Below, in pieces: positions 8,721 through 47,104 of a stretch of DNA of 64,000 nt. Source of the DNA: Squalus acanthias. Taxonomy: Eukaryota. Location: positions 152,708,001 through 152,772,000 of the forward strand of contig CM059431.1 in assembly GCA_030390025.1 (NCBI GenBank), read 5' to 3'. The notes beneath the pieces were generated by a model. The model was not told the DNA's origin. It saw nothing but the letters and a program-made list of their open reading frames with translations, and ran no database searches. Position 1 is the stretch's first letter; every line of letters starts with the position of its first letter. The position numbers and the translations under genes are program-made.

Positions 8721-8732
8721 CACTCTCTCAGA

Positions 8733-9040: not shown

Positions 9041-9141
9041 ATTAGCGCCATCGACTTATCGTTGATCAATGAGGATAGTTTTCCTTACTAAACAATCACT
9101 TTTTCTGGTGGGCTTACAAGCGTAATTACTTTCGAGTCATT

Positions 9142-9877
9142 GGCTCAAAAATTCGTGAGGAAGCCTTCGTGCGAGGGTAAGGCCTCCCCACGATCTCTCA
9201 CTCCGCGTTGGCTTTTTCAGTTCCAGCTCGCACGAATTGATGTTCTGGACAGCTGCTGTGCTGGGCTTGCGTATCCCACCGGCGTAGTTAATTCGTGCGA
9301 GCTGTGGGATCACGTGACTCAGTTAGAGCCAATGGCAGCACACCATCTTCCATTCATAACTTTCACATAAGTGCTGTGAAAGTTATGAATACTATAGCCC
9401 CCCAAAAGAACCGCTACACCTCAATTAAATAAAAAAAACCATCACATTAATAAAATAAGTATAGTTAAATAAATTAACCATTTTAACTAAAAAATGTAAT
9501 TTTTGAAAAAAATTAAAATCTTTTAAAAAGTTATAAAAATAAACTTACCTGTCTTTAAAGTCTCTAAAAAAGATATACCTGTTAAAAAAAATCAAAAATA
9601 ATACTTAATTCACTACTTACCTTGTTAAAAGTGGGTCTTACTCCTTTTTTTATGTGTAGAATCTTCCGTACTTACCTGCGCGTTGAAACCACTAAGTGCA
9701 CAGCGTGCGCGCAGCCTGTAGCGCGCACGCGGTTCACCTAGGACCCGCCCCCTTTTCCATTCACCAAGTGTCAGTTTTCAGCGCATGCGCAGTGCATGCA
9801 GAAAACCGGCAATTGGAGACAGAATACGCGAGAGTACGCAGTGCGTACTCTCGCGTAGCGGCACTAATTTTTGGGCC
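9142..9877. mobile_element. Harbinger/PIF-like MITE (MITE-1, 736 bp)
   Basis: TIR ggctcaaaaattcgtg / ggcccaaaaattagtg (14/16), ATT duplicated on both sides, absent from the paralog at ~53610. Confidence 0.85.
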
Positions 9878-10759
9878 ATTATCTTATCAATAGTTTCACT
9901 CTTGATCCACAGCATTTCAATTCTACCAAGTGAAACCATTAATTATAAATCTACTTTTATTTCTGGATCATTCGTCCCAATTATAATGATGATGCATGCC
10001 CCGATTTTTTCGTCTGGAACTAACTGTCTTCCCACATTGTATCAAATGATTACAGTTATCTGAAATGTATGAATCAGTTTGCAATGACATGTGTTATATA
10101 AATCTCTTATTGCGTCCTCCTGAGACTGACCATTGCTGCAGGAACGGCCCTCGCACATCAGTCCACTGTTACTTTAAGTAGACTTGTACATCCCTGCTTA
10201 ACAGGCAAACGCTAAATATTATACATTAAAGCTATAGAAAGATAAACCAATATCGCATAACTTTACCAAACATTAGGACAGTCTAATTAACTCTTTCCTT
10301 ACAGTAACCCACTGTTGGCGTTCGATTACTTAAGGCCAACAATAAAATTAAATCTCATCAGCATCATATATCTATCTCGATCTATTCTCTTCTCCAGATC
10401 TCTACCCATTTGCTTTACACATTACTTTATCCAGAGCCACATTAACCATTTCTTGTAGTGCTGACTTCAGCGTGACTGACCATGTCTTAGACCCATTCTT
10501 CAGAGCATCTTCATCATGCACATCGCATGCTGGTATCGTATTCACGAGCAACACCACACTTCAGCACACACAGCGATCACCCAAGATCAGGCAGCAGGAG
10601 GCATCCGATACAAGCCATTCCTTCCCTTTCTGGCTATCTTCCCAAAGCTGGGAGAGGGGGCAGGGGTTCTGTCGATGTTTAATTAGCTTCTCCCCCTGCA
10701 TGGTTCTGATGTTTCTTGTAGTGGCCAAGCTATCAAGTTCATTCCTCTAATTGCTCAGT

Positions 10760-13700
10760 TCCAGAAAGGACAGAACCATGAAAGCGGACCTGAGCAAGAT
10801 GAGGGGCGGCGGCATAAAAGCAGCGGGAGAAAAGATCCTGGGGCGGAGCAGACCAGAGCAGCAGCGGCATATTTATTCGGTTAATTCAAAAACAACAACA
10901 AATTATCAAGGAGTGACGTCACCGGACAGCAGGTAGGTGATTGGTTGGTGAGTATTACAGCTGAGTTTGCTCTCGAAGCAAGCGAAGTGGGTTCAAAATA
11001 TAACTTTAACGAGATGTAGTAAGTAGTTAAAAAATAAACCATGAGCTAAGTTAATTGAATGCATAAACATTATTTAATTAATTACCTAAAACGAGGTTCT
11101 TTCGTGTTGGCAGTGCAAGTTGTGTGCCGCAACATGATCAAGTGGAATGTTTGTGGCGAGCATCGCGACCCCTGATGACCATGTCTGCAGTTAGTGCCTG
11201 CACCTCGAGGAACTTCAGCTCGGAGTTGTTGAACAGAAGACCGAGGTGTAGACATTGCGAGGCATCAGGGCGGGGGGGAGTTACCTGGACACTTTGATCC
11301 TGGAGGCAGTCACACTCATTCGCTAAGGTAGTGGAACAGGCCTGGTGGTGGCCAGGGACAGGATGGTGTGGCTGCGACTTAGACAGGTAAGGGGACCCCA
11401 GGTTGCAGCCCTGGAGGAGTCTCGGCTTAGTACGTATTCAGCAGGTATGTGGTTCTTGCTGCCTGTGTGGATGAGGGCAAAGTCTGCAGTAAGGATGTGC
11501 AAACTTACCACGGCACCGTGGTATAGGAGGCCATTCGAGTGGGGGGGAGTTAAAATGAATGAAGTTGTGGTAGGGGACAGTATAGTCAGGGGGTGAAATA
11601 CTGTTCTCTGCAGCAACGACCGGGTGCTCCGAAGGCTCTGTTGCCTTTCAGGATTAAGGATATCTCCCCGCAGCTGGAGAAACATTTGGAGGGGGAGGGG
11701 AAGGATTCAGTGCTCGTGGTCCATGTAGGAACCAATGACATACGTCGAACTAGAAATGAGGTTCTGCTGAGAGAGTTTGAGGAGCGAGCATACAATTTAA
11801 AATGCAGGACCTCAAAATAATAATTTCTGGATTGTAACCTCATCCACGTGCAAATTACCATAGGGATAAGCAGAACCGAGAGTTGAAGGATTTGTTGAAA
11901 GAATGGTTTGGGAGGAAGAGATTTGGATTCATGGGCACTTGCACCAGTTCTGGAAAAACAGTGAGCTGTTCCATTGGGAGGGGCTCCACTTAAACCGGGT
12001 TGGGACCTGTATCCTGGTGAATCGAATAACACGGACTGTTAATGGGGCTTTAAACTAAAAGTCAAGGCAATGGAGCAGTGTATCGATGTGGGTAAAGATA
12101 AGCAGAGTGCGACAGGAAAGGACAGAGAGCTTAACGGTAATGGGGCATCAGCGAATAAGGAGAAAGCAGAGAATAATGGTAAAAAGTTAAAATTAAAGGC
12201 TGTTTGTCTGAATGCACGAAGCATTCGTAACAAGGGATCTATAAGAAATTAAACCAGACTAAATATAAACGAAACAGGAACGGAGAGCATAGGACGGAAT
12301 AAACTAAGGGAGGGCATAGACTCTACGTAATAAATAGAGTTATTGAACTAGAGAGTTAAAATATGGTTAAAAATAAAGCGAAGAGAACTGCTATTAAGCA
12401 TGAGTTAAACACCCTGTACAGCAATGTGCACTATGTCCGTAATAAAACAGGGGAACTGGAGGCACTAATATGTTGCGAGGAACCAGATATTGTAGGAAAT
12501 TCTAAGACATGGCTACAAAAAAGCAGGACAGCGAATTAAACATTGCAGGGTATGTTTAGAAACGATAGAGAAGGGAAAAGGGAGATGGAGTAGTTGTGCT
12601 TATTATAGGTAACATATTGGCAGTAGAAAATATGACGCAGCTATCAGTAAGACAGAAATAGAATCCAAGTTGATAGAGATAAAAGATAATGAAGGGTGAG
12701 TACACACCCAGAGGAAGTCTACAGACTACTAATGGTGGAAGAGGAGATGAAGGAAGAAATTTGGAAACAAATGAGAGAAATTAGTAAAAAAAAAAATATG
12801 TGGAGTTTAAACTGCCCCGAAATTAATTGGGCAGAAGAGCTAGGTAAAGGGAATAAGGGAATGGAGTTCCTACTATGTGAAAAGGACTCCTTTCGAACCC
12901 AATAGGTAAGAAGTCGAAAAGGGAGAATTAGCTACTGGATCGAGTAATGGGGAATGAAACAGAGCAGATAAGAGAAGTAAAAGTGGGGCAGCATCTTGGT
13001 AATAGTGACCACAATATAATACGATTTCAGGTAATAATTGAGAAGAACATACGTATGACGCCGAACAGGGTAATAGATTGGAGAAAATGCGATTTTGAGG
13101 GGCTGAGAATAGAACTTGGGAAAATAAAATGTACCACAATATTGGCAAGCAATGATGTAGAACAACAATGGGAAACATTTATTCAGCAGGACCAGGAAAA
13201 TATAGTCCACTAAAATTCAAGAACAAACTAAGCACTAATGAGACGCCATGGATGAATAAAGACATAAGGGAAAAATTGAGGATAAGGAAAGAGGCATACA
13301 CTAAGAAAATGGACAACAGGGAAGATCATGGCAAGGGAGAATGTGAAGAGAATAGAGAAGTCAAAAAAACAATAGGAAGGCAAAGGGGAACTTGCGATTA
13401 AATTAGCAAGCAACATAAAACAAAGTAATAAAATATTCTACAGGCAGGTAAATAAAAAGGACATTTGGGATGGGAATACGGCCATTCAGGAACGGTCAGG
13501 ATAAAATCAAAGGCAGTGATATCGAAATGCCAGAAATATTACATAATTACTTTACTTCAGTATTTACCAGGGAGACGGTCAGGTAGACGTGACATCGGAA
13601 AATAAGATTAGAAATTATATAACCACATTTAAAATTAAAAAGGAGAACTATTAAATAAATTAATCGAACTCAAACAGGAGAAATGCCCTGCTCTAGACGG

Positions 13701-15260
13701 ATTATATTCGTTCCTTTTAAAGGAATCCAGGGAAGCGACAGAAGAGACACTATTACACATATTTAATAATTCGTTAGGAAACGGTATAGTTCAAAAGGAC
13801 TGGTGGATAGCTAACGTAATACCTATATTTAAGAAGGGAAATGGAACATGTCCATGGCACTATAGAGCAGTCATCTTAACATCGGTGTTAGGATAAATAA
13901 TGGAATCCCCACTAAATGAAAAAAATAGAAGGAAATCTAGAAGACAAAAATATAATAATGATTAGTCAGCATGCATTTCGAAAGAGAAAGTCTTGTTTGA
14001 CCACACTCATTGAATTCTTTGAAGAGGTAACAGAGAGCGTTGGCAAGGGTAAAGTAATAGACGTAATTTATCGAGATTTCAAAAAAGCCTTCGATAATTT
14101 ACTGAATAACAGACTAATGAAAAAGGTCAGAGAATGCGGAGTGAGGCAACAAGTAGCAGAATGGATAGTTAGCTGGCTTCAAGACAGAAAGCAGAGAGTA
14201 GGGTAAAGGTTAGCTATACGGAGCGGCAGATTATGAAAAGTGGGGTCCCACAATGATCAGTGCTGGGACCATGTTTGTTCACAATTTATGTTAACAATTT
14301 AGACTTTGGAATCAAAAACACTATTTCTAAATTGGCGGATGTCACCAAATTGGGGGAAGGGTGCGGCTGTGATAGTCAGTACTGAGGAGGGCTGCAACAA
14401 ATTACAAGAAGACATTAATAAACTTGCAGAATGGGCAAATGCATTTCAACACAGATAAATGGGAGGTATTCTTTTTGGTAAGAAAAATAAGGAAGTCACA
14501 TATTACTTGGAAAATAAGAATCTAAATGGGATAGAAAAGCAAAGCGATCTTGGATTACAAATACACAAATCAGTAAAACTAGCGACGCAGGTTTATAAAT
14601 GCAAGCGACACATAAAAAAGCAAACCAAGCACTCGGGTTTAATTCAAGAGGGATAGAATTGAAAAGTGGGGAATTATGCGAAACTTGTATCGAACCTTTG
14701 TAATACCACCCTTGGAGAACTGCGGACAGTTCTGGTCGCCAAATTATAAAAAAGATATAGAGGCACTGGAGAGGGTGCACAAAAGATTTACAAGGATGAT
14801 ACAAGAACTGCGAGGATATACCTATCAGGAAGTATGAACAGGCTGGGTCTCCTTTCTATTGAAAAGAGAAGGCTGAGGGATGACCTAATAGAGGTCTTTA
14901 AAATATGAAAAGGTTTTGATAGATAGACAGAGAAAGCATGTTTCCACTTCTGGGGAAGAGCAAAACTGAAGGCCATCAGTGTAAGATAGTCACCAAGAAA
15001 TCAAATACGGAATTCATAAGAAAGTTCTTACCAATAGAATGTGAGGATGTGAACCTCGCTACCACAGGGAGTGGTTCAAGCAAACAGTATAGACACATTT
15101 GAAGGGAGGCTAGATAAGAATAGGAGGGAGAAGGGAATATAGGGTTGTGCTGATAGAGTTAGATGAGGAAAGATGAAAGGAGGCTCGAGTGGAGCTTAAA
15201 CGCCGACATGGACTGGTTGGGCCGAATGGTCTGTTTCTGTGCTGTATATCCTGTGTAAAC
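10760..15260 (+). mobile_element. Near full-length degenerate CR1 LINE
   Basis: 5' UTR, ORF1 remnants (VVGDSIVRG, VHVGTND), EN and RT remnants (DFKKAFD), 3' tail; many stops and frameshifts. Confidence 0.9.
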
Positions 15261-16297
15261 TGCTTTCATCTCCAAGAGAAAGCAATCAGTTAACTATCTT
15301 AAATATACTTACCTGACTTGTACTAGATTGTGAATTGATACCAGGATGAGATTTTTTGGCGAGTTGTGCCCAGGTGATTTCGGCTAAGAAGGTACAGTAC
15401 AGAATAGAAAGAAGTAGACTGCTGCCATTATTTGAGGGATCTGGAACGAACGGCTATAGATTAAACAATGGATTGAAGAGATTTAGAACGGGTGGTCAGA
15501 GACTCCTCTTACATTGAGAATGGTGAAGTTGTGGAATTAACAGAGGCAGAAATTATGTCAAAATTGGAGACTAAATTGTATGAACAAAAATAGGATGAAT
15601 TGATGTTGAGACCGGGCGGATAAAGTGATTGGAACTATTTGATCGGCTGGAGGGTAAACGCTGAGAAGGACTAATTGGGTTAAACAGTCTTTTCCCCTCT
15701 TATAACATTCCAACAAACTGATGACCAGTTGAGATTTTCAGTAAATATCTGTGAACAAAGATGTCTAATGTCACATTGACGGGTCAAGTTCCTACTGTCT
15801 CCATCATTAAACACTGATCAGGAGACAGGGCCCCGTTCTATTGGTCCAGGTGACAATGGGGGGCGGAGTCTGATGGGGAGTCCAGCGCCTGCAACATTCA
15901 CACCAAGATTACAGAATTACAAATAAACACCATTGTAACACATTGTTTCTACACTAAAGGAATATCTATCTGTTAATTAAACTGAGCGTCTCATTCCAGT
16001 AGCTGCTGTGTGAGGTAGTTAACGCTGACGCACACATGTTCTACTCCACTGCTGAAGCTCAGTCATGACTGTTCTCCTTGAATCTTGAGCGGGAAAGGCG
16101 CTGTTTTAGCGGGAATCGATTATGTTCACCAGAGGAAAGCAGCAGACATCAAACACACGGCACAAAGTGGGAGAAATATTTCCTGAACCCTGTTCATTTT
16201 CACAAGAACAATCCGCTTTTGTCCCAAGGGAAAGATTGCCATTCTAAAACGGAACACGGGCTGTAATTGAGCTCTAGTTAGGACAGGAAGTTATGTT

Positions 16298-17205
16298 TTA
16301 ATTCTTCATTTTATTAACCAATATCAGAATCAATGTCCAAGGAGATTTCACCATCTTCACCAACTCTTGCCTGAATTTGGTTTGTGTCGCTGCATAAATG
16401 CAGGTGTTTGTACAGGAACTCAAATACATGAGCATAAATCCGCTTTCAGACAGGATGTATGCAGGGGTTTCATACTCACCTTTGTAATAAACGGCCAGGC
16501 TGTCAGTGATGAAGCTCATGGCAGATGTGAACCACAACAGTATAAAACTGCCCGATACAGTGAACAGTAAAATGATGGATTTCCTCCGGCTCTCCATCTC
16601 TGGATCGCTCTGATTCTCACTGCAGTGACCCCGGAGTCGCCTGCGGGCCCGACTGCTTACTACAATTCGTCTGACTGTCAAACAATTAAACAGTAATATC
16701 AAAGCAACAGTAAACCATGGAACTAAAATAATTTGAATGCGCAAATAGGCTATGCCTGCAGGAGAAGAGTAAAAGGCTACATTGGCGCGGCATCCCCAGG
16801 AAACATTGTTAATGATTCGTTGAGATTCATAGGAGAAAGCAAAGGGGATATTCTCGATACAGACCAGCACAAGGACAGTTGTTAAAACAGCTGCCGCAGT
16901 TCTCACTGTGCAATATTTTGTTTTAAACTTCTGACAACATATTGTTACAAATCGATCAAAAGTGAACAAGGCTGTAAACCACACCGACATATCCAGGGTG
17001 ACGGCATTGATGTAATGAATGGACTTACACACGGGAGTGTAGAACAGGAATGAATGCGGAAAGTGGTAACAGAAAATCTGAAACACCAGTATATGGAAGA
17101 TGATGACCAGTAGATCTGCTGTCGCCATGGCCACCATGTAGACCGAGATACATTTGGAAAGGCCGCAATTTCCTCTGGAGAGAATCAGGATTGTCAGTAG
17201 GTTCG
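16298..17205 (-). CDS. GPR139-like class A GPCR, paralog A, exon 2
   Basis: 7TM pattern with MATADLL, TFDRF and SSCTNTCIY; acceptor cttacag at 17206; phase-1 join with exon 1 gives 325 aa. Confidence 0.9.
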
Positions 17206-17334
17206 CTGTAAGGAAGAGGGAGAAGAGGTTAGTAACAGGGACATCCGGTTAAACCTCACAGCTTATTGTGGGGGAATGCTCAGATGCGGGGACCAACATT
17301 GTTGTTTTGCCATATAGGCGAGCATTGAGGTGTC

Positions 17335-18305
17335 AAAGAGCCATACAGTCATTACGGCAGAGAGGGAGGGCATTCGTCCCATCGAGTCCGTACCGCTCTC
17401 TGTAGAGCAATGCAGTCAGTCCCATACTCCCGCCCCACCCCCCACTGCGCCACTGTCCCCGCAGCCGTACAAGATTATTTCCCTCAAGTGCCTATCAAGT
17501 CTCCCCTTGAAAACATTGAGTGTCTCCGCTTCCACCACATCCGTCGGCAGTGAGTTCCAGGTCCTCACCACTCACTGCGTAAAAAAGTTATTCCTCACAT
17601 CCCCCCTGTATCTCTTACCCAAAACCTTCAATCTGTGTCCCCTAGTCTTTTTACCATCAGCTAGTGGGAATAGCCTTTCCCCGTCTAGCCTATCCAAACC
17701 CGCCATAATTTGCACACCTTTATCAAATCACCCCTCAACCTCCTTTGCTCTAATAAAACAAAATCCAGCTTCTCCAACCTGTCCTTGTAGCCAAGAACCC
17801 CCATCCCCGGAAACATTCTGGTAAATCTCCTCTGCACCCTCTCAAGGGCCTTCACATCCTTCCAAAAGTGTGGTGACCAGAACTGGACGCAATACTCCAG
17901 TTGTGATCCAACCAGTGCTTTATAAAGTTCTGCATCACTTCTCTGCTTTTGTACTAAATACCACTATTTATGAAGCCTAAGATCCCATATGCTTTGTTAA
18001 CCAATCTCTCAATATGTCCCGCCACCATCAGGGACCTATGCACATTAACTCCCAGGTCCCTCTGTCCCTGCAAAATCTTTAAAACTGTGCCATTGAGTGT
18101 ATATTGCCTCTCCCTGTTCCTTCTGCCAAAATGCATCACCTCACACTTCTCTGTATTAAATTCCATCTGCCGCTTGTCTGCCCATTCTGCTAGCCTTTAT
18201 ATGTCCTGCTGCAGCTACTGTTTGCCACACCCCAAGTTTGGTGTCATCGGCAAATTTAGAAATTCTACCCTGTATTCCAATATCCAGGTCATTTATATAT
18301 ATCTT
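17335..18305 (-). mobile_element. CR1 3' fragment in the intron of paralog A only
   Basis: FNTEKCEVMHFG motif and CR1 tail; the paralog B intron is contiguous across this site (~38885). Confidence 0.88.
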
Positions 18306-18809
18306 AAAAAATTGATTTAAAAGGAATGAAACACTGAATATTCAATATAGAGGGACTCAAATTCCGACTCCCTTCCACCATACTTCAGGCAGTGGTTAAA
18401 TATAATTTCGCAGCAATTACTGGAAATATCTAGATTCAATAAAACATTCAGCTGTTGGGTGGAGGTAGCTGCAGTCCGAGCAATTATCAACTTAAAATAG
18501 ACAGGGAACTACGGGACAAATGATATTAATACTATGGACACTAAGCAACACATTTTTTACTGGACTATGTACTGTTGGAGGAGCCGGGGAATCAGCCTCG
18601 CACTCCCTCAGTGTAGAGAGGGAAGTTGAGTGCCCGTGCCGAAGATCTGCCCGACAGAGTAGCACCTAACCGGCCGCGCGGACTGGTCGGATTCCCGCTG
18701 ATATTCACCAAATTATCCCGGTAGATAAATGATCTTCACGGAATCTGTTACATAATCATTAACAGTGAGATCGTCAACAACTATTAAACAACAGGATGCA
18801 TTGACTTAC

Positions 18810-18879
18810 CGAGAATACCAAAGACCGCGAGAAAATTATAGTATATGTCCTTTATCTGTAGAATTATTGGCCGTGCCAT
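18810..18879 (-). CDS. GPR139-like paralog A, exon 1 (MARPIILQIKDIYYNFLAVFGIL)
   Basis: ATG at 18879, donor G|gtaagt at 18809; 70-nt exon, phase compatible with exon 2. Confidence 0.85.
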
Positions 18880-18957
18880 TTTTAGAAGACTGTGTGAATA
18901 CTGTCCAGCTTTACAGTTCCGACTGGATTGAAGTCCGAGATCCGTAAATGCTCCCCC

Positions 18958-18963
18958 TTTATA
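18958..18963 (-). promoter_or_regulatory. TATA box of paralog A
   Basis: TATAAA ~80 nt upstream of the ATG, conserved in paralog B. Confidence 0.6.
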
Positions 18964-19267
18964 GAACAATCCATCCCCCGGTGAGCAAACCAGGTTACAC
19001 AATAATTGAACTTAGTTACAGTCACTTAACAAACAAGGGGCTATTTTCCGCTACAGTGCGTCCGGTCCACCAATGGGGAAATTGAACAGCTCAGTCCATG
19101 AAACTCCGTCCATTTAAATCAAAGAAAGGGAGTTAATCCCAGATGGAATGTGCTCTGCGCCCGTCATGTGATCCCTGAAGGGAGCATCTCTCCAAGTCCC
19201 TGTGTTAGCTTCTTAGAGCCTCACATAATTTGGTGAAATCTCTCTCATCCATTACATAAGTAATGCT

Positions 19268-20695
19268 TTAACGTTACTGTTGATATCTCTGCCCAGACAT
19301 TAATGGTCGTCACCCTTCTCTAATATTACTACTGGTAATCCTAAACTAATATTACTGGTGGTGGCCATCATCTAACATTAATGGTGATGGCTCTACTCTA
19401 ATATTACTGGTGGTGAACCTACTCTAACATTACTGGTCATAACTCAACATAAGATTACAGATGGAGACCCTATACTAACATTACTGGTGATGATCCTCCT
19501 CTAACATTGCTGGTAGTGACCCAACTTGAACATTACTGGTGGTAACTCTACTCATGCCTTACAGCTGGTGACAGCACTCTAACATCCGGGAAGGCGCTGA
19601 ATACCTCCAGCCTCTTCGCCGGGAGCAAGCGGAAGCCAAGCGCAAGCAGCGCAAGGAGTGCACGTCAACCCAAGCACCCCACCCACCCGCCCGTTCAACC
19701 ACCGTCAGCCCCACCTGTGACAGAGACTGTAGGTCCCGCATTGGTCACATCAGTCATCTGAGAACTCAATTTTAATGTGGAAGCAAGTCATCGTCGGTTC
19801 CGAGGGACTGCCTAAGAAGAAGAAGAAGAGACCGGAGTTTAATCTGCTCTAACATTACTGGTGGTGAACCTATTCTAACATTAAAGCTGCGGAATCTAAT
19901 CTAACGTTACTGGTGGTGACTGCACTCTAACATTACTGCTGGTGACCCTACTCTAACATAACTGATGGTGATTCTACTCTAACATTACTTGTGATGACAT
20001 TTCTCTAACTTTACTGGTGGTGGCTCTACTCTAACATTACTCGTCCTGACCTCACTCTAATATTACTGGTGATGAAAATAGTCTAACATTACTGGTGGAG
20101 ACCCTTCTCTAACATTACAGATGGTGACTCTACTCTATCATTGCTGATGTTTACCCTTCTCGAACATTGCTGTTGGTGACTCTACTCTATTAATGCTGGT
20201 GCTGAATCTACACGAACATTACTAGTGGTGATCCATGTGTAACAGTACTGGTGTAGACTCTATTCTAACATTACTGGTGCTGAATCTGCATTAATATTAC
20301 TGGTGATGACACTTGTCTAACATTACTGGTGGAGTCCCTACTCTAACCTTACTGCTGTTGTCCCTACTCAAACGTTGCTGATGCTGACTCTACTCCAACA
20401 ATACTGGTGATGACCCTCCTCTAACATTACTGGTGGTGACTCTAATCTAACAGTGCTGGTGACGACCCTCCTCTAACATTACTGGAGGCGACTGTACTGG
20501 AACATAACTGGTAGTGGCCCTCGTCTAATATTATTGGTTGTCACACTGCTCTAGCATTACTGGAGGCGACTCTACTCCAACGTTGCTGGTGGTGACTGTA
20601 CTCTAACGTTACTGTTGGTCGCTCTTTTCTAACCTTTCTGATAGTGACACTACACTAACATTCCTGGTGTTGACTCTATTCCATCATTACTGGGG
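19268..20695 (-). repeat. 26-bp satellite, reverse orientation (ACTCTAACATTACTGGTGGTG...)
   Basis: Degenerate tandem units, reverse complement of the 33085-37925 array. Confidence 0.92.
19585..19830 (+). mobile_element. RTE-clade LINE 3' fragment
   Basis: Matches the 3' end of the element at 35275-36337; (AAG)n tail. Confidence 0.85.
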
Positions 20696-21682: not shown

Positions 21683-21684
21683 TG

Positions 21685-22752: not shown

Positions 22753-22764
22753 GGATAACTTTTA

Positions 22765-33082: not shown

Positions 33083-33084
33083 TG

Positions 33085-36000: not shown

Positions 36001-37925
36001 TGCACTGGCACACTGAAGGCGGTGTTGGTCTTTGACATTGACGACTACCCTTGTTGACAGTACGCTCCCGAGGTATGGAAAGTGGTCCACGTTGTCCAAG
36101 GGCTCGTCATGGATTTTGATAATCATGGAGCAGTACTGTGTGGTGGGGGCAAGTTGGTAGACGACCTTTGTCTTACGGATGTTTAGTGTGAGGCCCATGC
36201 TCTCGTACGCTTCGATGAAGGTGTTGACGGTTTGGAATTCGGCCTCAGAGTGTGCGCAGAAGCAAGCGTCGTCTGCATACTGTAATTCGATGACAGAGGA
36301 TGTGACGACCTTGGATCTGCACTGGAGGCGACGGAGTAATTTAGAGTAGAGTCACCACCAGTATTGGTAATGTAGGGTTACAATCTCTAATGTTAGAGTA
36401 GAGACACAAACAGAAATGTTAGATTAGAGTCACCACCAGTTTTGTTAGAATAGGGTCACCACCAGTAATCTTTGAGGAGGTTCACCACCAGTAATGTTAG
36501 AGTAGGTCACCACCATTAGAGTATGGTCATCACAGGTAATTGTCCAGTAGGCTCACAACTATTAAAATTAGTGTAGGGTCAACACCAACAATGTTAGAGT
36601 AGAGTCACCACCAGTAATTTTAGAGTAGAGTTACCACCAGTAATGTTAGAGTAGGGTCAACACCAGTAATGTTAGAGTAGGGTCTTCACAGGTAATGTTA
36701 ATGTAGTGTCACCATCAGTAATGTCAGAGAAGGATCATCACCAGTAATGTTATCATAAGATCACCACCAGTAATATTAGAGTGTTAGAGTAATGCAACAA
36801 CAAATAATGTTAGACAAGGGTCACGATACGTTACGTTAGATTAGTATTACCCCCAGTAATGTTAAAGTAGGATAACCACCAGTAATGTTAGAGAAGAGGC
36901 ACCACAATTAATGATAGAGCAGATTCAATGCGAGTCATGTTAGAGTAGAATCACCACCAGTAATGATTTAGCAGGATTATCATCAATAATATTGGAGTAT
37001 GAACACCACCAGTAATGTTAGAGTAGGATCACCACCAGTAATGTTAGAGTAGGGTCACCACCATTAATGTTCGTGTAGGGTCACCACCAGTAATGTTAGC
37101 GTAGGATCACCACCAGTAATGTTATGTTAAGGTTATCACCATGTAATATTGGAGTAGGATCACCACCCGTAATGTTAGAGTAGTGTCACCATCAGTAATG
37201 TTGGAGTATAGTCATCCACAGTAATGTTAGGTGAAGGGGTAGCACGTCTTAGGTTACAGTAGGGGCACTACCAGTAATGAAAGTGTAGGGGCACCACCAG
37301 TAATGCTAGAGTAGTGTCACCTCCAGAAATGTTAGACTAGGGTCACCACCAGTAATGTTAGAGTAGAGTCACCACCAGCAATGTTAGACTAGGGTCACCA
37401 CCAGTAATGTTAGAGTAGAGTCACCACCAGCAATGTTAGACTAGTGTCACCACCAGTAATGTTAGAGTAGGGTCACCACCAGTACTGTTAGGGTAGGATC
37501 ACCACCAGTAATGTTAGAAACAACTCACCATCAGCAATGTTAGACTAGGGCCACCACCAGTAATGTTAAAGTAGAGTCACCACCAGTAATGTTGGAGTAG
37601 AGTCACCACCAGTAATGTTGGAGTAGGGTCACCACCAGTAATGTTAGAGTAGGGTGAACCGCAGTAATGTTAGAGTAGAGTCACCACCAGCAATGTTAGA
37701 GTAGAGTCACCACCAGCAATGTTAGAGTAGGGTCACCACTAGTAATGTTAGAGTGAAGTCACCACCTGTAATGTTAGAGTAGGGTGACCACCAGTAATGT
37801 TAGAGCAGAGTCACCACCAGTAATGTCAGAGTAGAATCACCACCAGTAATGTTAGAGTAAAGTCACCACCAGTAATGTTAGAGCAGAGACATCAACAGTA
37901 ATGTTACAGTAGGTTCTACAACAGT
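33085..37925 (+). repeat. 26-bp satellite (CACCACCAGTAATGTTAGAGTAGGGT)n
   Basis: Period 26 read directly (e.g. 33121 to 33147); ~3.8 kb excluding the RTE insertion. Confidence 0.97.
35275..36337 (-). mobile_element. 5'-truncated RTE-clade LINE with 31-bp TSD
   Basis: QYADD, GLTLNIRKTKV, FPYLGS, QLRWLGHIVRMPDTRLPK, C-terminal CPTC..HLRTH; TSD 35244-35274 / 36338-36368 (1 mismatch). Confidence 0.92.
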
Positions 37926-38226
37926 GAAGTTGAAGCGCTTATTATGTAATGATGAGAGAATTTTTCACCAAATAACGTGGGCCCAAGAAGCTAACACAGG
38001 GATTTGGAGAGATGTTCCATTTAGGGTTCACTCGGCTGGCGTCGAGCGCATTCCCACTGGGATTAACTCCCTTTCATTGATTTTAATGGACGGTGTTTCA
38101 TGGACTGAACTTTTCAATTGTAGCCCGGGTGCACTGAAGCGGAAAATCGCCCTTTGTTTGTTAAGTGACTGTAACTAAGATCTGTTATTGTGTAACCTGA
38201 TTTGCTCACCAGGGCACGGATTGTTC

Positions 38227-38232
38227 TATAAA
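38227..38232 (+). promoter_or_regulatory. TATA box of paralog B
   Basis: TATAAAG ~80 nt upstream of ATG 38309. Confidence 0.6.
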
Positions 38233-38308
38233 GAGGGAGCATTTAAGGATCTCAGATACACGCAGTCGGAACCGTAAAGCAGGACAGAAGTCACACAGCC
38301 TTCTGAAA

Positions 38309-38378
38309 ATGGCACGGCCAATAATTCTACAGATAAAGGACATATACTATCATTTTCTCGTGGTCTTTGGTGTTCTCG
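38309..38378 (+). CDS. GPR139-like paralog B, exon 1 (MARPIILQIKDIYYHFLVVFGVL)
   Basis: ATG 38309, donor G|gtaagt at 38379. Confidence 0.85.
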
Positions 38379-39027
38379 GTAAGTCAATGCATCCTGTTGT
38401 TTAATAGCTGATGACGATCTCACTGTTAATGATTATGTAACTGATTCCGTGATGGGTCTCACTGCAGAGTCACTTATCCACCGGGATAATTTGGTGAATA
38501 TCAGCGGGAATCCTCGCAGTTCGCCCTGCCGGTTAGGCGCTATTCTATCCGGTAGATCTTGGGCACGGGGCACTCAAACTCCCTCTCTACACTGAGGCGA
38601 GGGTGATTCCCCGGCCCCTCCAACAGTACATAGTCCTGTAAAGAATGTGTTGCTTAGTGTCCATAGTATTTATTTCATTTGTCCCGTGGTTCCCTGTCTA
38701 TTTTAAGTTGATAATTGCTCGGACTGCAGCTAACTCCACCCAACAGCTGAATGTTTTATTGAATCCAGATATTTCCAGTAATTGCTGCGAAATTATATTT
38801 AACCACTGCCTGAAGTATGGGGGAAGGGACTCGGATTTTGAGTCACTCTATACTGAATATTCAATGTTTCATTCCTTTTAATTCAAATCTCCTCAACGCT
38901 CGCCTATATGGCAACAAATCAGTGTCCGTAACGCCAAGTAGGGACACATCTGAGCATTTTCCCACAATATGCTGTGAGATTTATCTGACTATCCCCGTTA
39001 CTGACCTATTCTCCCTCTTCCTTACAG

Positions 39028-39926
39028 CGAACCTACTGACAATCCTGATTCTCTCCAGAGGAAATTGTTGCCTTTCCAAATGTATCTCGGTCTACATGGT
39101 AGCCATGGCGACAGCAGATCTACTGGTCATCATCTTCCATATACTGGTGTTTCAGATTTTCTGTAACCACTTTCCGCATTCATTCCTGTCCTACACTGCC
39201 GTGTGTAAGTCCATTCATTACATCAATACCGTCACCCTGGATATGTCGGTGTGGTTTACAGTCTTGTTTACTTTTGATCGATTTGTAACAATATGTTGTC
39301 AGAAGTTTAAAACAAGGTATTGCACAGTGAGAACTGCGGCAGCTGTTTTAACAACTGTCCTTGTGCTGGTCTGTATAGAGAATATCCCCTTTCTTTTCTC
39401 CTATGTACCTCAACGAATCATTAACAATGTTTCCTGGGGATGCCGCGCCAATGTAGCCTTTTATTTATCGCCTGCAGGCATAGCCTATTTCCGCATTCAA
39501 AGTATTTTAGTTCCATGGTTTGCTGTTGCTTTGATATTACTGTTTAATTGTTTGACAGTCAGACGAATTGTAGTAAGCAGCAGGGCCCGCAGGGGACTCC
39601 GGGGTCACTGCAGTGAGAATCAGAGCGATCCAGAGATGGAGAGCCGGAGGAAATCCATAATTTTACTGTTTACTGTATCGGGCAGTTTTATACTGTTGTG
39701 GTTGACATCTGCCGTGAGTACTTTCACGGACACCGTGGCCGTTTACTACAAAGGTGAGTATGAAACCCCTGCATACATCCTGGCTGAAAGCGGATATATG
39801 CTCATGTATTTGAGTTCCTGTACAAACACCTGCATTTATGCAGCGACCCAAACCCATTTCAGGCAAGAGTTAGTGAAGATGGTAAAATCTCCTTGGACAT
39901 TGATTCTGATATTGGTGAAAAAATGA
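39028..39926 (+). CDS. GPR139-like class A GPCR, paralog B, exon 2
   Basis: Acceptor ctccctcttccttacag ending 39027; ANLLTILILSRG, TFDRF, SSCTNTCIY; spliced product 322 aa. Confidence 0.9.
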
Positions 39927-40964
39927 TGAATTAAACCATAGCTTCCTGTCCTAACTAGAGCTCAATTACAGCCCGTGTTCCGTTTTAGAATGCAATATTT
40001 CCCTTGGGGCAAAAGCCGATTGTTTTTGTGAAAATGAACATGTATCAATAAATATTTCTCCCTCTTTGTGCCGGGTGCTTGATGTCTGCTGCTTTCCCCG
40101 GGTGAACATAATCGATACCCGCTAAAACAGCGCCATTCCCGCTGAAGATTCAAAGGGAACCGTAATGACTGAGCTTCAATAGTGGAGTAGAACATATGTG
40201 CGTCAGCGTTAACTACCTCACACAGCAGCTACTGGAAGGAGGCGCTCAGTTTAATTAACAGATAGACATTCCTTTAGTGTGGAAACAATGAAGGATTTTA
40301 AAATCATGCTTATTTGTAATTCTGTTATCTTGGTGTGAATGTTGCAGGCGCTGGACTCCCCATCAGACTACGCCCCCTATTGTCTCCTGGACCAATAGAA
40401 CGGGGCCCTGTCTCCTGATCAGTGTCTAATGATGGAGACAGTAGGAACTTGTCTCGTCAATGTGACATTAGACATCTTTGTTCACAGATATTTACTGAAA
40501 ATCTCAACTGGTCAACGAAATTGTGGAATGTTATGAGAGGGGAAACAACTGTTTAACCCAATCAGTCCTTCTCAGCGTTTACCCTCCAGCCGATCAAATA
40601 GTTCCAGTCACTTTATCCGTCCGGTCTCAACATTACTTCAGACATCTATACAATTAGTCTCAAATATTGAAATAATTTCTGCCTCTGTTAATTTCAGAGC
40701 TACACCACTCTCCGTGTAAAGAGGAGTCTACGACCATCCGTTCTAAATCACTTCAATCCATTTTTAATCTATAGCAGTTATTTCAAGATCCCTCAAATAA
40801 TGGCAGCAGTCTGCTTCTTTTCATTCTGTCCCGGACCTTCTTAACCTAAAGCACCTGGGCACAACTCGCCAAAAATCTCATCCTGGTACCAATTCACAAT
40901 CTAGTGCAAGTCAGGTAAGTTTAGTTATATAGTTAATTGATTGCTTTCTTTTGGAGATGAAAGC

Positions 40965-43900
40965 GGTTTATATAGGATATACAGCACAGAAACAGGCCTT
41001 TCGGCCCAACCAGTCCATGTCGGCGTTTAAGCTCCACTCGAGCCTCCTTTCATCTTTCCTCATCTAACTCTATCAGCACAACCCTCTATTCCCTTCCCCC
41101 TCATATGCTTATCTAGCCTCCCTTCAAATGTGTCTATACTGTTTGCTTGAACCACTCCCTGTGGTAGCGAGGGTCACATCCTCACATTCTATCGGTAAGA
41201 ACTTTCTTATGAATTCCGTATTTGATTTCTTGGTGACTATCTTACATTGATGGCCTTTAGTTTGACTCTTCCCCACCAGTGGAAACATTCTCTCTGAGTC
41301 TACTCTATATCAAAACCTTTCCATTTTAAAGACCTCTATTAGGTCACACCCCAGCCTTCTCTTTTCAATAGAAAAGAGACCCAGCCTGTTCATACTTTCC
41401 TGATAGGTATATCCTCGCAATTCTTCTATCATCCTTGTAAATCTTTTTTGCACCCTCTCCAGTGCCTCTATATCTTTTCTATAATATGGCGACCAGAATT
41501 GTACACAGTTATCCAAGTGTGGTATGACTAAGGTTCGATACCAGTTTAGCATAATTCTATACTTATCATTTCTAATTCCGCTTGAAATAAACTCTAGTGC
41601 TTGGTTTGCTTTTTTATGCGTCGCTAGCTTTTATAAACCAGTGGTGCTAGTTTCAGTGATTTGTGTATTTGTAATCCAAGATCGCTTTGCTCTTCTATCT
41701 CATTTAAATTCTTATTTCCCAAGTAATTTGTGACCACCTTACTTTTCTGACCTAAATGTAATACCTTCCATTTATCTGTGTTGAAATCAATTTGACAATT
41801 ATATGCCCATTCTGCAAATTTATTCATGTCTTCTTGTAATTTGTTGCAGTCCTCCTCAGTATTGATTATCACAGCTCCACCTCCCAATTTGGTGACATCC
41901 GCCAATTTAGAAATTGTGTTTTTGATTTCAAAGTCTAAATTGTTAATATAAATTATGAACAATCATGGTTCCAGCACTGACCATTGTGTAACCCCACTTT
42001 CCACATTCTGCCACTCCGTATAGCTAACCTTTACCCCTATTCTCTGATTTCTGTCTTGAGGCCAGCTCGCTATTCTTTCTGCTACATATCACCTAACTCT
42101 GCATTCTCTGATCTTTTTCATCAGTCTGTTATGTATTACTTTATCGAAGGCTTTTTTGAAATCTTGATAAATTATGCCTACTACTTTACCCTTGTCTACG
42201 CTCTCTGTTAGCTCTTCAAAGAATTCAATGAGTGTGGTCAAACAAGACTTTTTCTTTTGAAATGCATGCTGATTATTCAAGATTAGATTTTTGGCTTCTC
42301 GGTGTTCTTCTTATTTTTTCCTTTAGTAGGGATTCCATTATTATTCCTACCACCGATGTTATGCTGACTTAACTATAGTCCCACGGACATGTTCCATCTC
42401 CCTTCTTAAATATAGGTATTACATTAGCTATCCGCCAGTCCTTTTGTACTATACCTTCTTCTAACGAATTATTACATATGTGTAATAGTGCCTCTTTTAT
42501 CGCTTCCCTAGATTCCTTTAATAATGCGGTTATATCATTTCTAATCTCATCTTCCGATGTCACGTCTACCTGACCGTCTCCCTGGTAAATACTGAAATTA
42601 AGTAATTACATCATATTTCTGGCATTTCGCTATCGCTGCCTGTGATTTTATACTGGCCGTTACTTAATGGCCCTATTCCCATCGCGACTTTCCTTTTTTC
42701 CTTTTTTATTTATGTGCCTGTAGAATATTTTATTACATTGTTTTATGTTCCTTGCTAATTTAATCGCATGGTTCCCCTGTGCCTTCCTATTTTTTTTTAC
42801 TTCTCTCCTAATGTCTTTGTATTCTCCCTTGCCATGCGCCCCCCCTATTGTCCATTTTCCTAGTTTATGCCTGTTTCCTTATCCTCAATTTGTTTCCTTA
42901 TGTCTTTATTCATCCATGGCGTCTCATTAGTGTGTAGCTTGTTCTTTATATTTAGTGGAATATATTTTTCCTGCACTCTGCTGAATACCGTTTTAACTGT
43001 TTCCCATTGTTGGTCTACATCATTGCTTGCCGATATGTTGTACATTTTATTTTCCCAAGTTCTATTCTCAGCCCTTAAAATCGCCTTTTCTCCAATCTGT
43101 TACCCTGATCATCGTCATACTTATGTCCTTCTCAATTATTACCTGAAAGCGTATTATATTATGGTCACTGTTACCTAGATGCTGCCCCACTTTTACTTCT
43201 CTTGTCTGCTCTGGTTCATTCCCCATTACTCGATCCAGTAGCTAATTCTCACTTTTCGGCTTCTTACATATTGCGTTAGAAAGGAGTCCTTTGAACATAG
43301 TCGGAACTCCATTCCCTTGTCCCCTTTACCTAGCTCTTCTGCCCAATTAATTTCGGGGCAGTTTAAATTTACCATTATTATTATTCATTTTTTACTAATT
43401 TTTCGAATTTGTTTCCATATTTCTTCCTTCATCTCTTCTTCTTCCACCATTAATGGTCTATAGACTACCTCTATTAGTGTGGTTCATTATCTTTTATCTC
43501 TATCCACGTGGATTCTATTTGTGTCTTACTGATAGCTGTGTCATTTTTTACTGCCATTATTTTATCTCTATTAAGCACAGCTAACCCACTTCCCTTTTCC
43601 CCTCTCTATCTTAACTAAATATGTTATACCCTGCAATGTTTAATTCCCAGTTCTGATTTTTCTGTAGACATGGCTCAGTATTCCCTACAATATCTGGTTC
43701 CTCGCAACGAAATATTGCCTCCAGTTCCCCTGATTTATTACGGACAGAGTGTGCATCGCTGTACAGAGTTTAACTCATGTTTAATAGCAGTTCTAGTCAC
43801 TTTATTTTCAAACATATTTTTACTCTCTAGTTCTATAACTCTATTTAACACCTAGAGTCTATGTCCTCCCTTAGTTTATTCCTTCCTATGCTCTCCGTTC

Positions 43901-45410
43901 CTGTTTCGTTTATATTTAGTCTGTTTTTATTTCTTATAGATCCCTTGTTACGAATGCTTGGTGCATTCAGATAAACAGCCTTTAATTTTAACCTTTTTAC
44001 CATTATCCCCTGCTTTTTCCTTAATCGCTGATGCACTATTACCATTAAGCTCTCTTTTCTTTCCAGTCACACTCTGCTTATCTTTATCGAAATCGATACA
44101 CTGCTCCATTGCCTTGACTTTTAGTTTAAAGCCCCATCAACAGTCAGTGTTATTCGATTCACCATGATACAGGTCCCAGCCCGGTTTAAGTGGAGCCCCT
44201 TCCATATGGAACAGCTCACTCTTTCTCCAGTACTGGTGCCAGTGCCCATGAATCGAAACATTTTCCTGCCAAACCATTCTTCCAGCAAACATTTAACTCT
44301 CAGTTCTGCTTATCCTTATTGCAATTTGCACGTGGCTGAGGTTTCAATCCAGAAATTATTACTTTTGAGGTCCTGCGTTTTAAATTGTCTGCTCGCTCCT
44401 CAAACTCTCTCAGCAGAACCTCATTCCTAGTTCGACATATGTCAGTGGTTCCGACGTGGACCATGACAGCTGGATTCTTCCCCTCCCACTCCAAATGTTT
44501 CTCCAGCTGTGGGGAGATATCCTTAAAGCCTTCGGTACACCCGGTCGTGGCTGCAGAGAACAGTCTCTAGCCCCCTGAGTATACTGTCCCCTACCACAAC
44601 TACATTCATTTTCACTCCCCCCACTCGAATGGCCTCCTATACCACGGTGCCATGGTCAGTTTGCTCATCCATACTGCAGACTTTGCCCTCATCCACACAG
44701 GCAGCAAGCACCTCATACCTGCTGAATACGTACTAAGCCGAGGCTACTCCAGCACTGCACCTGGGGTCCCCTTACCAGCCTGAGTCACAGTCACACCCTC
44801 CTGTCCCTCACCACTAACCAGGCCTGTTCCACTACCTAACCTAAGGGGTGTGACTGCCTCCAGGAGCAAAGTGTCCAGGTAACTCTCCCCCGCCCTGATG
44901 CCTCGCAATGTCTGCACCTCGATCTCCTGTTGAACAACTCCGAGCTGAAGTTCCTCGAGGTGCAGGCACTAACTGCAGACATGGTCGTTAGGGATCGCGA
45001 TGCTCGCCACAAACATTAAACGTGATGTTGTTGCGGCACACAACCTGCACTGCCATCACTATACAACCCCGTTTTAGTTATTTAATTAATTAATGTTTAT
45101 GCATTCAACTAACTTAGCTCATGGTTTAGTTTTTAACGACTTACTACATCTAGTTTTAGTTATAGGTTGAACCCACTTCGCTAGCTTAGAGAGCAAAATA
45201 ACCTGTAATACTCAGCAACAAATCACCGACCTGGTGTCCTGTGACGTCACTCCTTGATAATTTGTTGTTGTTTTTGAATTTCCCGAATAAATATGCCGCT
45301 GCTGCTCAGGTCTGCTCCGCCCCAGGATCTTTTCTCCCGCTGCTTTTATGCCGCCGCTCCTCATCTTGCTCAGGTCTGCTTTCATGGTTCTGTCCTTTCT
45401 GGTACTGAGC
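40965..45410 (-). mobile_element. Degenerate CR1, mirror copy of 10760-15260
   Basis: Same 5' UTR, ORF1 and ORF2 remnants in inverted orientation. Confidence 0.9.
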
Positions 45411-46278
45411 AATTAGAGGAATGTAATTGATAGCTTGGCTACTACAAGAAACATCTGAACCATGCAGGGGGAGATTTTTATTAAACATCGACAGAACCCC
45501 TACCCCGTCTCCCAGTAGATAGCCAGAAATGGCAGGGATGGCTTGTATCGGATGCCTCCAGCTGCCTGATCTTGGGTTATCGCTGTGTGTGCTGAAGTGA
45601 AGTGTTGCCCGTGAATGCGATATCAGCATGCGATGCGCATGATGAAGATGCCGTGAAGAATGGATCCAAGACATGGTCAGTCACGCTGGCATCAGCACTA
45701 CAAAAAATGTTTCATGTGGCTCTGGAGAGAATAATGTGTAAAGCAAATGGGTAGAGATCTGCAGAAGAGAATCCATCCAGATAGATATATGATGCTGATG
45801 AGATGCTTTTTAGTGTTGGCCTTAAGTAATCTAACGCCAACAGTGGGGTATTGTAAGGAAAGTGTTAATCAGCCTGTCCTAAAGTTTGCGAATGTTACAC
45901 AGTATTGGTTTATCTTTCTATAACTTTAATGTTCATATTTAGCCTTGGACTATTAAGCAGGGATGCACAAGTTTAAATAAAGTAACAGTGGACTGATGTG
46001 CCAGGGCCGTTCCTGCTGCAATGGTCAGTCTCAGGATGAAGTAATAATAGGTTTATATAACACATGTCATTGCAAACTGATTCATAAATTTCAGAGAACG
46101 TTAATCATTTGCTACAATTTGGGATGACAGTGAGTTCCAGAAAGGAAAACATCGGGGCATACATCATCATTTTAATTGGGACAAAAGTTTCAGAAACAAA
46201 TGTAAATTTATAATTAACCGTTTCACTTGGTAGAATTGAAATGTTGTGGATCAAGAGTGAAACTCTCGATAAGATAAT

Positions 46279-47032
46279 GGGCCAGAAATTCGGCTGTTGT
46301 CGGGTGAGTACGCGCTGTGCACTCACCCGTAAGGCCACCTGAAGTGCCGGATTCCTGCATGCACTGCGCATGCGCGGGAAACCGGAACTTCCGTCCCCTG
46401 AAGGGAGGGGTACAGAAGTTGAACGCGTGCGCGGGAGAGGCTGCGAACTTCAGGTTCTTTTTCAGGTTTCTCCGGGAAGGTTAGTATGAGGAAGCTGCAC
46501 TTTTAAAAAAGGAGGCGCAAGTCCTGTTTTTAGCAAGGTAAGTGGTTAATTAATTACAATTTAAACATTTTTTCAACAGGTTTTTCTTTTTTAGATACTT
46601 TAAAGAAAGGTAAGTTTATTTTGAGCACCCTTAAAAAGGATAATTAATTTTTTCAAAAAGTTAAATTTTTGTTTGAAGTAGTTAGTTTATGTAACTTATA
46701 GTTATTTTAAAAATGTGATGTTTTATAAAAAATGTATTTGAAGTTTAAGTGTGTTTTTGGGGCCGATCTCTATTCATAGATTTGACAGGTCTTCCTGTCA
46801 AATCTATGAATGAAAATGCCCTGCTAGGATTGGCTCTACATTGCCCACGTGATCCCAGGGGACGCTTCAAACTAACTGCGCCCCTGGGGTACACAAGCAC
46901 TGCGCGCCAGCAGCTGCAGGAGGCCCAGGACCCGAAGTCTTCGTGGGCCCAAAGCACAACTGCAGGCGTGGTCGGCAAGTACGCGCGCGATGCTTGCACC
47001 CGCAGGAAGCTGGAAAGCCGAATTTCTGGCCC
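46279..47032. mobile_element. Harbinger/PIF-like MITE (MITE-2, 754 bp)
   Basis: Perfect 17-bp TIR gggccagaaattcggct; AAT duplicated on both sides. Confidence 0.9.
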
Positions 47033-47104
47033 AATGACTCTAAGGGAATTACGCTAGTAAGCCCACCAGACAAAATTGATTGTTCAGTAAGGAAACCCAT
47101 CCCT

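What the first reader, a model, noticed from the sequence alone, without database searches (positions are those of the whole stretch)
9139..9880. Two different MITEs occupy exactly the same nucleotide in both arms of the duplication
Seen: MITE-1 (9142-9877) and MITE-2 (46279-47032) both sit in gagtc-ATT[element]ATT-atcttatc, in the same relative orientation. The third paralog has the empty site (gagtc-ggt-atcttatc, ~53606-53621). The flanks are ~89% identical (123 bp hand-aligned), but the first ~59 bp of the elements match at only ~50-55% and the TIRs differ (ggcccaaaaatt vs gggccagaaatt). Each element looks young (CpG-rich, perfect hairpins, good TIRs), so decay of one ancestral insertion does not explain the pattern. 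Inference: either strict site-specific targeting by two subfamilies (Harbinger elements are known to have target preferences), or replacement of a resident element by gap repair from an ectopic family member after excision, as in P-element replacement.
Basis: partly seen in the sequence, partly recalled or inferred. Interest (0 to 1): 0.75.

Follow-up and report, generated by a model that had tools for sequence, protein, structure and literature searches.

The report
Two transposon subfamilies hit one target
Two related but distinct short jumping genes sit at the same base in two of twelve close copies of a duplicated region, most likely because each landed there separately on a short sequence their family prefers, so this is ordinary target choice and probably not one element replacing another.

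Summary
MITE-1 (9142-9877) and MITE-2 (46279-47032) share one site and an ATT duplication. They are 69-76% alike against about 88% in the flanks, and each has dispersed relatives at 97-98% or 92-93%. They are two subfamilies of one Harbinger-type family with 4.5-kb DDE + Myb/SANT parents.

Replacement is not supported. The site lies in 12 close paralogues, 10 of them empty. The two filled copies are not sisters (AU p=0.0002), neither element is chimeric, and the site scores in the top 0.03% for the family's target motif. A SINE position of equal score gives 337 junction matches, 88 of 100 listed at one base, from 5-10 subfamilies. About 3% occupancy there makes two hits unsurprising (p 0.04-0.4); motif-only estimates are far lower (0.0002-0.002). 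This is known from plants (PMC6881990), and earlier scan notes report it at other repeats in this genome.

Side result: 26 of 68 SINE-site insertions have mismatched TSDs at exact 3-nt spacing, probably because the element brings its donor overhang with it.

The parts
9139..9141 (+). left copy of 3-bp TSD (ATT) of MITE-1
   Evidence: single ATT in 9 of 10 close empty paralogues
9142..9877 (+). MITE-1, 736 bp, young subfamily of a Harbinger-type MITE family; 12-bp TIRs at 9142-9153 (one C>T) and 9866-9877
   Evidence: 97-98% dispersed copies; 1.49% from the column majority of 27 relatives
9766..9877 (+). terminal 112 bp of MITE-1 shared with DDE-bearing elements that carry the same TIRs
   Evidence: 92-95% identical to ends of L304, L287, L288, L290
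9878..9880 (+). right copy of TSD (ATT) of MITE-1
46276..46278 (-). TSD copy of MITE-2 (ATT on the minus strand)
46279..47032 (-). MITE-2, 754 bp, older subfamily of the same family; TIRs gggccagaaatt at both ends; 11-bp internal deletion against relatives
   Evidence: 92-93% dispersed copies; 3.72% from the column majority of 29 relatives; ends 81-88% identical to autonomous L286 and L289
47033..47035 (-). TSD copy of MITE-2 (ATT on the minus strand)
53606..53621 (+). empty site in a more distant paralogue; triplet GGT at 53612-53614 is a poor target, not a footprint
   Evidence: about 78% flank identity; motif score 1.7 bits against 8.87 for the ATT site; its clade has GTT/GAT/GGT
9067..19585 (+). 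host copy A of the locally repeated segment (L091); holds a 7tm_1 receptor ORF at 16298-17248 (-), 6.4 kb from the site
   Evidence: 84-90% inverted match to 37615-47108 in three blocks; Pfam; distance
37615..47108 (-). host copy B (L097); holds a 7tm_1 receptor ORF at 38814-39926 (+), 6.35 kb from the site

Best explanation
The two MITEs are most likely two independent insertions, at different times, of two subfamilies of one non-autonomous Harbinger-type family into an 11-bp sequence that closely fits the family's shared target motif and is present in many paralogous copies. Shown: two subfamilies; 3-bp ATT duplication; motif W-N-W-Y-[A-W-T]-R-W-N-W shared by both; the site is among the best-scoring in its segment; 10 of 12 close paralogues are empty; the filled copies are not sisters; the family reuses single nucleotides of other repeats hundreds of times. 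Inferred: mobilisation in trans by the 4.5-kb DDE + Myb/SANT elements with the same ends; MITE-2 entering copy B first and MITE-1 entering copy A later, each after that copy split from its nearest empty paralogue. The matching orientation is a coin toss (37 against 33 at the SINE site).
For: Tree of 13 host copies without the MITE: copy A groups with six empty copies (closest identity 94%), copy B with empty L096; holding A and B together is rejected, p-AU 0.00023 (813 columns) and 0.00012 (321 columns nearest the site). Only 1 column in the near-site alignment has a base shared by A and B and rare among the empties (distances). Element ages of 1.49% and 3.72% are below terminal branches of 0.029 and 0.065. 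Motif from 79 dispersed insertions: site score 8.87 bits, reached by 0.027% of 152,102 background positions, rank 1-3 of 2,000 positions in 9 of 10 empty paralogues. SINE position scoring 9.02 bits: 337 junction matches, control 0; 88 of the 100 listed at one spacing (hand count); 68 complete insertions from 5-10 sequence clusters, including the clusters of MITE-1 and MITE-2. L023 and L032 are a MITE-1-type and a MITE-2-type copy at that same SINE base. AAT-type occupancy is about 101 filled against 3,143 empty (3.1%, interval 2.2-4.2%); the AAT/AAC ratio is 17 observed against about 19 from the motif scores. The host-site family has 2 filled and 40 empty copies genome-wide (4.8%); P(at least 2) is 0.044 for 11 sites and 0.38 for 42.
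Against: The motif alone predicts only 0.18-0.59% occupancy per site for 15,000-50,000 copies, giving P(at least 2 of 11) of 0.0002-0.002. It also underpredicts the SINE AAT rate about 5- to 8-fold at 30,000-50,000 copies, so something beyond the 11-bp motif acts. Pooling AAT and AAC SINE sites gives 0.44% and P=0.001. The 3% figure may be inflated if AAC became AAT at or after insertion, and AAT copies may be older; it is deflated by junctions with mutated TIRs. Both hits fall in the 12-copy local clade and none among about 30 more distant copies. The paralogues are mosaic (L096 is 10.8% from A near the site but 93.7% identical over 2.5 kb), so the tree is an approximation. The element ages come from top hits and are rough.
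Confidence: 0.87

Rival explanations
1. Replacement: one element was inserted before A and B split; in one copy it excised and gap repair copied an ectopic member of another subfamily into the break, as in P-element replacement.
For: Same base, same orientation, same TSD. The subfamilies share 10 of 12 TIR bases and about 70% internal identity, which could prime repair. PIF/Harbinger excision is usually precise (PMC2836001, PMC4561436, passages), so losses would leave no trace.
Against: Needs at least three separate precise losses plus one swap, against two gains (tree). The older element (3.7%) is younger than the root of the clade (about 7-8% from root to tip for copy B). No chimeric ends: differences from the own subfamily are spread evenly, 0-3 per 75 columns in MITE-1 and 0-4 in MITE-2. 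No co-converted flank: A and B differ at -6 and +9.
Confidence: 0.04
2. Excision and re-use: an ancestral element excised precisely, and the restored target was later hit again by another subfamily.
For: Precise excision restores a top-scoring target (PMC4561436, passages). It cannot be told from a first hit at a single site.
Against: Same cost in parallel losses and same dating conflict as replacement; adds nothing that two plain gains do not explain.
Confidence: 0.03
3. Independent insertions, but this site is a true hot spot well above its motif score, through longer sequence context, DNA shape or local chromatin of the receptor cluster.
For: 2 of 12 local copies (17%) are filled; the motif-only expectation is 0.2-0.6% per site. 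The site and the SINE hot spot share A-G-T-Y-A-W-T-R-T-Y-T, and the SINE site too is used above its score.
Against: Genome-wide occupancy of this site family (2 of 42) fits the SINE rate; the case was picked because it was a double hit.
Confidence: 0.06

Closest known systems
Parallel insertion sites of DcSto Stowaway MITEs in carrot (PMC6881990; passages read)
   Same: Different MITE families at precisely the same position (292 sites, 1.6%), more often for families with similar TIRs and many copies.
   Different: There: alleles of one locus across accessions, Tc1/mariner-type. Here: paralogous sites in one assembly, Harbinger-type, 3-bp TSD with an extended motif.
PIF/Harbinger elements and Tourist-like MITEs: mPing/Ping/Pong, PIF, Harbinger3_DR (PMC2836001, PMC4561436; passages read)
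   Same: Short TIRs starting with G, 3-bp TSD, extended palindromic target preference (9 bp in plants, 15 bp in vertebrates per PMC2836001), parents with DDE transposase and Myb/SANT ORF.
   Different: The triplet is AWT, not TWA (PIF/Harbinger) or CWG (NuwaI) as defined in PMC4482050; about a third of copies have non-identical TSD halves.
Pangu group of the PHIS superfamily (PMC4482050; passages and section 5 read)
   Same: ANT-type 3-bp TSD; TIRs starting GG.
   Different: Pangu's second ORF has no known motif in that paper; here it has Myb_DNA-bind_5. Parents are 4.5-4.7 kb against about 3.5 kb. No transposase phylogeny was run.
Donor-overhang carry-over: mPing in TATSI (PMC11254759; passages); piggyBac at non-canonical sites (Li et al. 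2013, seen only as a title in reference lists, mechanism recalled)
   Same: The element leaves the donor with TSD-derived overhangs that can appear at the new junction.
   Different: TATSI shows this at Cas9 breaks and states that free transposition gives intact TSDs; here the signal is in natural insertions, inferred from sequence only.

Membership tests
MITE (non-autonomous DNA transposon) | short, TIR-bounded, TSD-flanked, high copy number | tested here: met
   736/754 bp, 12-bp TIRs, 3-bp TSD confirmed by empty paralogues; 20,371 matches to one 16-bp end pattern against 2 in the control; no ORF of 120 aa or more lies within either element
PHIS superfamily (Harbinger in the wide sense) | autonomous partner with DDE_Tnp_4 transposase and the same ends | tested here: met
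   L287, L289, L290, L299 and others: 4.5-4.7 kb, same TIR types; DDE_Tnp_4 E 7e-43 in L289 and L290; 112 terminal bp 92-95% identical to MITE-1
PHIS superfamily (Harbinger in the wide sense) | mobilisation of the MITE by that transposase | not testable with these tools
   inferred from shared ends only
PIF/Harbinger group (Han et al. 2015) | second ORF with Myb/SANT domain | tested here: met
   Myb_DNA-bind_5, E 4e-12 and 7e-14, on the opposite strand in L290 and L289
PIF/Harbinger group (Han et al. 2015) | TSD 5'-TWA-3' | tested here: not met
   triplet is AWT: A 0.88, A/T 0.90, T 0.88 over 79 sites; so not filed in this group
Pangu group | TSD 5'-ANT-3' | tested here: met
   AAT/ATT dominate; ACT and AGT occur
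Pangu group | second ORF without known motif | tested here: not met
   Myb/SANT found
Pangu group | transposase falls in the Pangu clade | not tested
   no reference transposases fetched
ISL2EU group | 2-bp AT TSD at A|AT|T; THAP transposase; YqaJ second ORF | tested here: not met
   AAT|ATT junctions mimic this, but empty sites show 3 added bases; Pfam finds no THAP or YqaJ in the four ORFs scanned
Element replacement by gap repair (P-element type; concept recalled) | a resident element existed at the site before the present one | tested here: not met
   filled copies not a clade, 10 of 12 empty, ages younger than terminal branches
Element replacement by gap repair (P-element type; concept recalled) | chimeric ends or co-converted flank | tested here: not met
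   a complete replacement would leave no such trace, so this alone does not exclude it

The most novel reading that the evidence does not exclude
This Harbinger-type family integrates like piggyBac: the excised element keeps 3-nt overhangs from its donor TSD, these are joined against the target's overhangs, and mismatch resolution writes the donor's triplet into one side of roughly a quarter to a third of natural insertions. Each mismatched TSD would then record the donor site's triplet, insertion would be mutagenic at the target, and such copies would no longer excise cleanly. At the SINE site, where the empty sequence is known, 26 of 68 insertions have non-identical halves at exact 3-nt spacing. 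19 have T for A in the middle on one side only, against 2 A>T changes in 204 neighbouring control bases. The young MITE-1 subfamily shows 9 of 28 such swaps against about 0.1 expected. Rivals not excluded: templating between the TIRs or in-place flipping (AGT|ACT in L169, TAT|ATA in L037 and AAT|GTT in L250 fit these), though three AAC|ATT cases fit carry-over better.
Probability: 0.55. Interest if true: 0.5.

Novelty: new member of a known kind. Interest (0 to 1): 0.27.

Why it matters
The finding as given is ordinary: parallel insertion of MITE subfamilies at one base is described in plants, and extended target preference is a known trait of this superfamily. It is a clean caution that a shared insertion site of these elements is not a marker of common descent: here a presence/absence reading would join two copies that the flanks place apart. 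The more valuable by-product is the TSD mismatch. If it reflects donor overhangs kept at integration, it settles a step of Harbinger chemistry that the mPing papers leave at excision, and tens of thousands of copies make it testable by computation.

Tried and rejected
Decay of one ancestral insertion: rejected; each element is far closer to dispersed copies than to the other. Opposite-orientation homology of the two MITEs: rejected. GGT at 53612 as an excision footprint: rejected; its clade carries GTT/GAT/GGT and nine closer paralogues carry ATT. More filled copies of the host site: a junction pattern with up to 2 mismatches found only these two; its other 7 matches are empty sites; it would miss copies with more diverged flanks. 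A 2-bp AT duplication to explain AAT|ATT: rejected by spacing at the SINE site. Point mutation to explain mismatched TSDs: rejected. Polymorphism of MITE-1: contigs of 4 of the 20 listed runs were laid on 8700-10400; no joint skips the whole element, but the pieces are short and no piece spans it, so this is uninformative. Copy number is rough: about 59,000 from 12 of 70 ends matching the counted pattern. Literature searches for imperfect TSDs in Harbingers and for the piggyBac precedent gave nothing readable on the point; Li et al. 2013 is not held. A search for Harbinger MITEs in sharks gave no description of this family. No supplements were read; those of PMC4482050 may list related families. 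Two look-ups of earlier findings for mismatched TSDs gave no matching note.

Full report
Observation. A global alignment in register gives 535 of 709 aligned columns (75.5%; 68.5% with gaps), against 86.7% and 88.6% for the flanks; the reverse orientation and 30 shuffles score far lower. So they are homologues, but more distant than their flanks. The window lies at G000:C7:152708001-152772000 of a 3.7-Gb genome. MITE-1 finds full-length copies at 97-98% and MITE-2 at 92-93% (39 other copies among the 40 scored in each). In an alignment of 58 copies (L014 and L016 dropped as duplicates of L013), each is at least 30.9% from every member of the other subfamily.

What the elements are. An end pattern of 16 bp has 20,371 matches against 2 for its control; a rough scaling gives tens of thousands of copies. 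Of 20 DDE_Tnp_4 loci fetched out of the 150 listed, about half carry the same TIR types; six span 4.5-4.7 kb. L289 and L290 encode a 385-386-aa DDE_Tnp_4 protein and a convergent Myb_DNA-bind_5 ORF. The last 112 bp of MITE-1 are 92-95% identical to four of these loci, and both ends of MITE-2 are 81-88% identical to L286 and L289. Mobilisation in trans is inferred. The triplet is AWT, which fails the TWA definition of the PIF/Harbinger group and fits Pangu's ANT, while the Myb ORF fits PIF/Harbinger and not Pangu (PMC4482050, section 5 and passages). I file them as PHIS (Harbinger in the wide sense), group unresolved.

The host site. It is not a two-copy duplication. Searches with the flanks find 12 close copies in C7:150.5-153.7 Mb plus more distant ones. 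The window's two copies each carry a 7tm_1 receptor ORF about 6.4 kb away. Ten of the 12 are empty, nine with ATT and one with ATC. In a tree of the 12 plus one outgroup, MITE excluded, copy A falls among six empty copies and copy B pairs with empty L096. Forcing A and B together is rejected (p-AU 0.00023; 0.00012 for the 321 columns nearest the site), and they differ 6 bp left and 9 bp right of the TSD. Support for inner branches is moderate (84-94) and the copies are mosaic. Distances of the elements from their subfamily majorities, 1.49% and 3.72%, spread evenly along their lengths, are below the host terminal branches, 0.029 and 0.065. Two late gains explain this; one early gain needs at least three precise losses and a swap.

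Why that base. A symmetrised matrix from 79 dispersed insertions (56 top hits and 23 of 30 pattern hits; 2 had no second end, 5 were dropped as duplicate or ambiguous) gives W-N-W-Y-[A-W-T]-R-W-N-W, 5.7 bits over 11 positions; the two subfamilies show the same motif separately. The empty site scores 8.87 bits, reached by 0.027% of background positions, and ranks 1-3 of 2,000 positions in 9 of 10 paralogues; the ATC copy scores 4.65 and the GGT copy 1.7.

An internal control. Among the top hits, L023 (MITE-1 type) and L032 (MITE-2 type) sit at one base of a dispersed repeat tail, which I call a SINE from recall. A pattern anchored there with a free gap of 0-24 bases finds 337 junctions, control 0; 88 of the 100 listed have the same spacing (hand count). 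I fetched 90 of the 100, leaving out four off-register rows and the last six. 83 are in register, 70 resolve to a complete element with the repeat continuing, and 68 pass a flank filter. They fall into 5-10 clusters by threshold, in both orientations (37 and 33 of 70). Exact empty sites number 37,585, of which 3,143 have AAT. Scaled occupancy is about 3.1% for AAT (9.02 bits) and 0.18% for AAC (4.79 bits), a ratio of 17 against about 19 from the scores; leaving out the off-register rows raises this by about 4% of its value. At 3.1%, P(at least 2) is 0.044 for 11 sites and 0.38 for 42. Against this: the matrix alone gives 0.18-0.59% per site and P 0.0002-0.002, pooled SINE sites give P 0.001, and the AAT rate may be inflated. 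A double hit is therefore plausible to uncommon for a named site, and expected somewhere in a scan of many windows.

Side result. At the SINE site 42 of 68 insertions have identical TSD halves and 26 do not, always with exactly three bases between element and repeat. Nineteen have T for A in the middle on one side only (6 left, 13 right), against 2 A>T in 204 control bases (binomial P 8e-15; the control columns passed the same flank filter). Some halves differ by two or three bases (AAC|ATT three times, AAC|TAA, TTT|AAC). The young subfamily shows 9 of 28 middle swaps against about 0.1 expected. mPing excises by staggered cuts in its TSDs (PMC4561436, passages) and carries donor TTA/TAA to Cas9 breaks, while free insertions are said to have intact TSDs (PMC11254759, passages). 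Carry-over of the donor overhang is my best reading; TIR templating or in-place flipping fits a few cases. Searches found no description of this for Harbingers, in a library that lacks most subscription journals.

Comparison and verdict. Different MITE families at the same base are known as parallel insertion sites in carrot (1.6%, PMC6881990, passages), and extended target preference is a hallmark of the superfamily (PMC2836001, passages). Earlier notes of this scan, read after my reading was formed, report the same behaviour at satellites and CR1 tails of this genome; they are unchecked. Interest 0.27, most of it from the TSD by-product.

Noticed in passing
L131-L253 (SINE-site insertions); L002-L060: About a third of insertions have non-identical TSD halves at exact 3-nt spacing, mostly AAT against ATT; best read as donor overhang carry-over.
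   Followed up: partly
G000, repeat tail matched: One base of an abundant SINE-like tail holds about 300 MITE insertions from 5-10 subfamilies, roughly 0.5-1% of the family; AAT versions are used about 17 times more than AAC.
   Followed up: yes
window 9142-9877 and 46279-47032: Both MITEs keep the same motifs despite 30% divergence: CACGTG and CCAAT near one end, GCGCATGCGC near the other, and two or three GTAAGT splice-donor-like motifs on the strand reading in from that end (labels recalled). Probably the promoter and leader of the parent element, as earlier notes suggest.
   Followed up: partly
window 16298-17248 (-) and 38814-39926 (+): Two paralogous rhodopsin-family receptor ORFs (7tm_1) in a locally amplified cluster; they resemble GPR139/142-like receptors from recall only.
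   Followed up: no
window 59588-60472 (-): 294-aa ORF with an NAD:arginine ADP-ribosyltransferase domain (E 2e-41), looking like a vertebrate ecto-ART exon.
   Followed up: no
window 56047-56481 (-): Myb/SANT-like ORF, probably a relic of another Harbinger-type element.
   Followed up: no
G000: 63,886 first-look candidates for DDE_Tnp_4, many of the 150 scored in open frames of 384-392 aa; a second abundant family of about 4.1 kb with different TIRs (L291-L297, L301). PMC9179366 (passages) found no Harbingers in the one cartilaginous fish it examined; earlier notes call this genome shark-like, which I did not test.
   Followed up: no
L138/L139, L211, L215: Several MITEs sit between head-to-head SINE tails, and such inverted tail pairs recur among the empty matches.
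   Followed up: no
window 19260-22760 and 33080-37930: Long degenerate tandem arrays with a period of about 26 bp shared between the duplicated arms.
   Followed up: no
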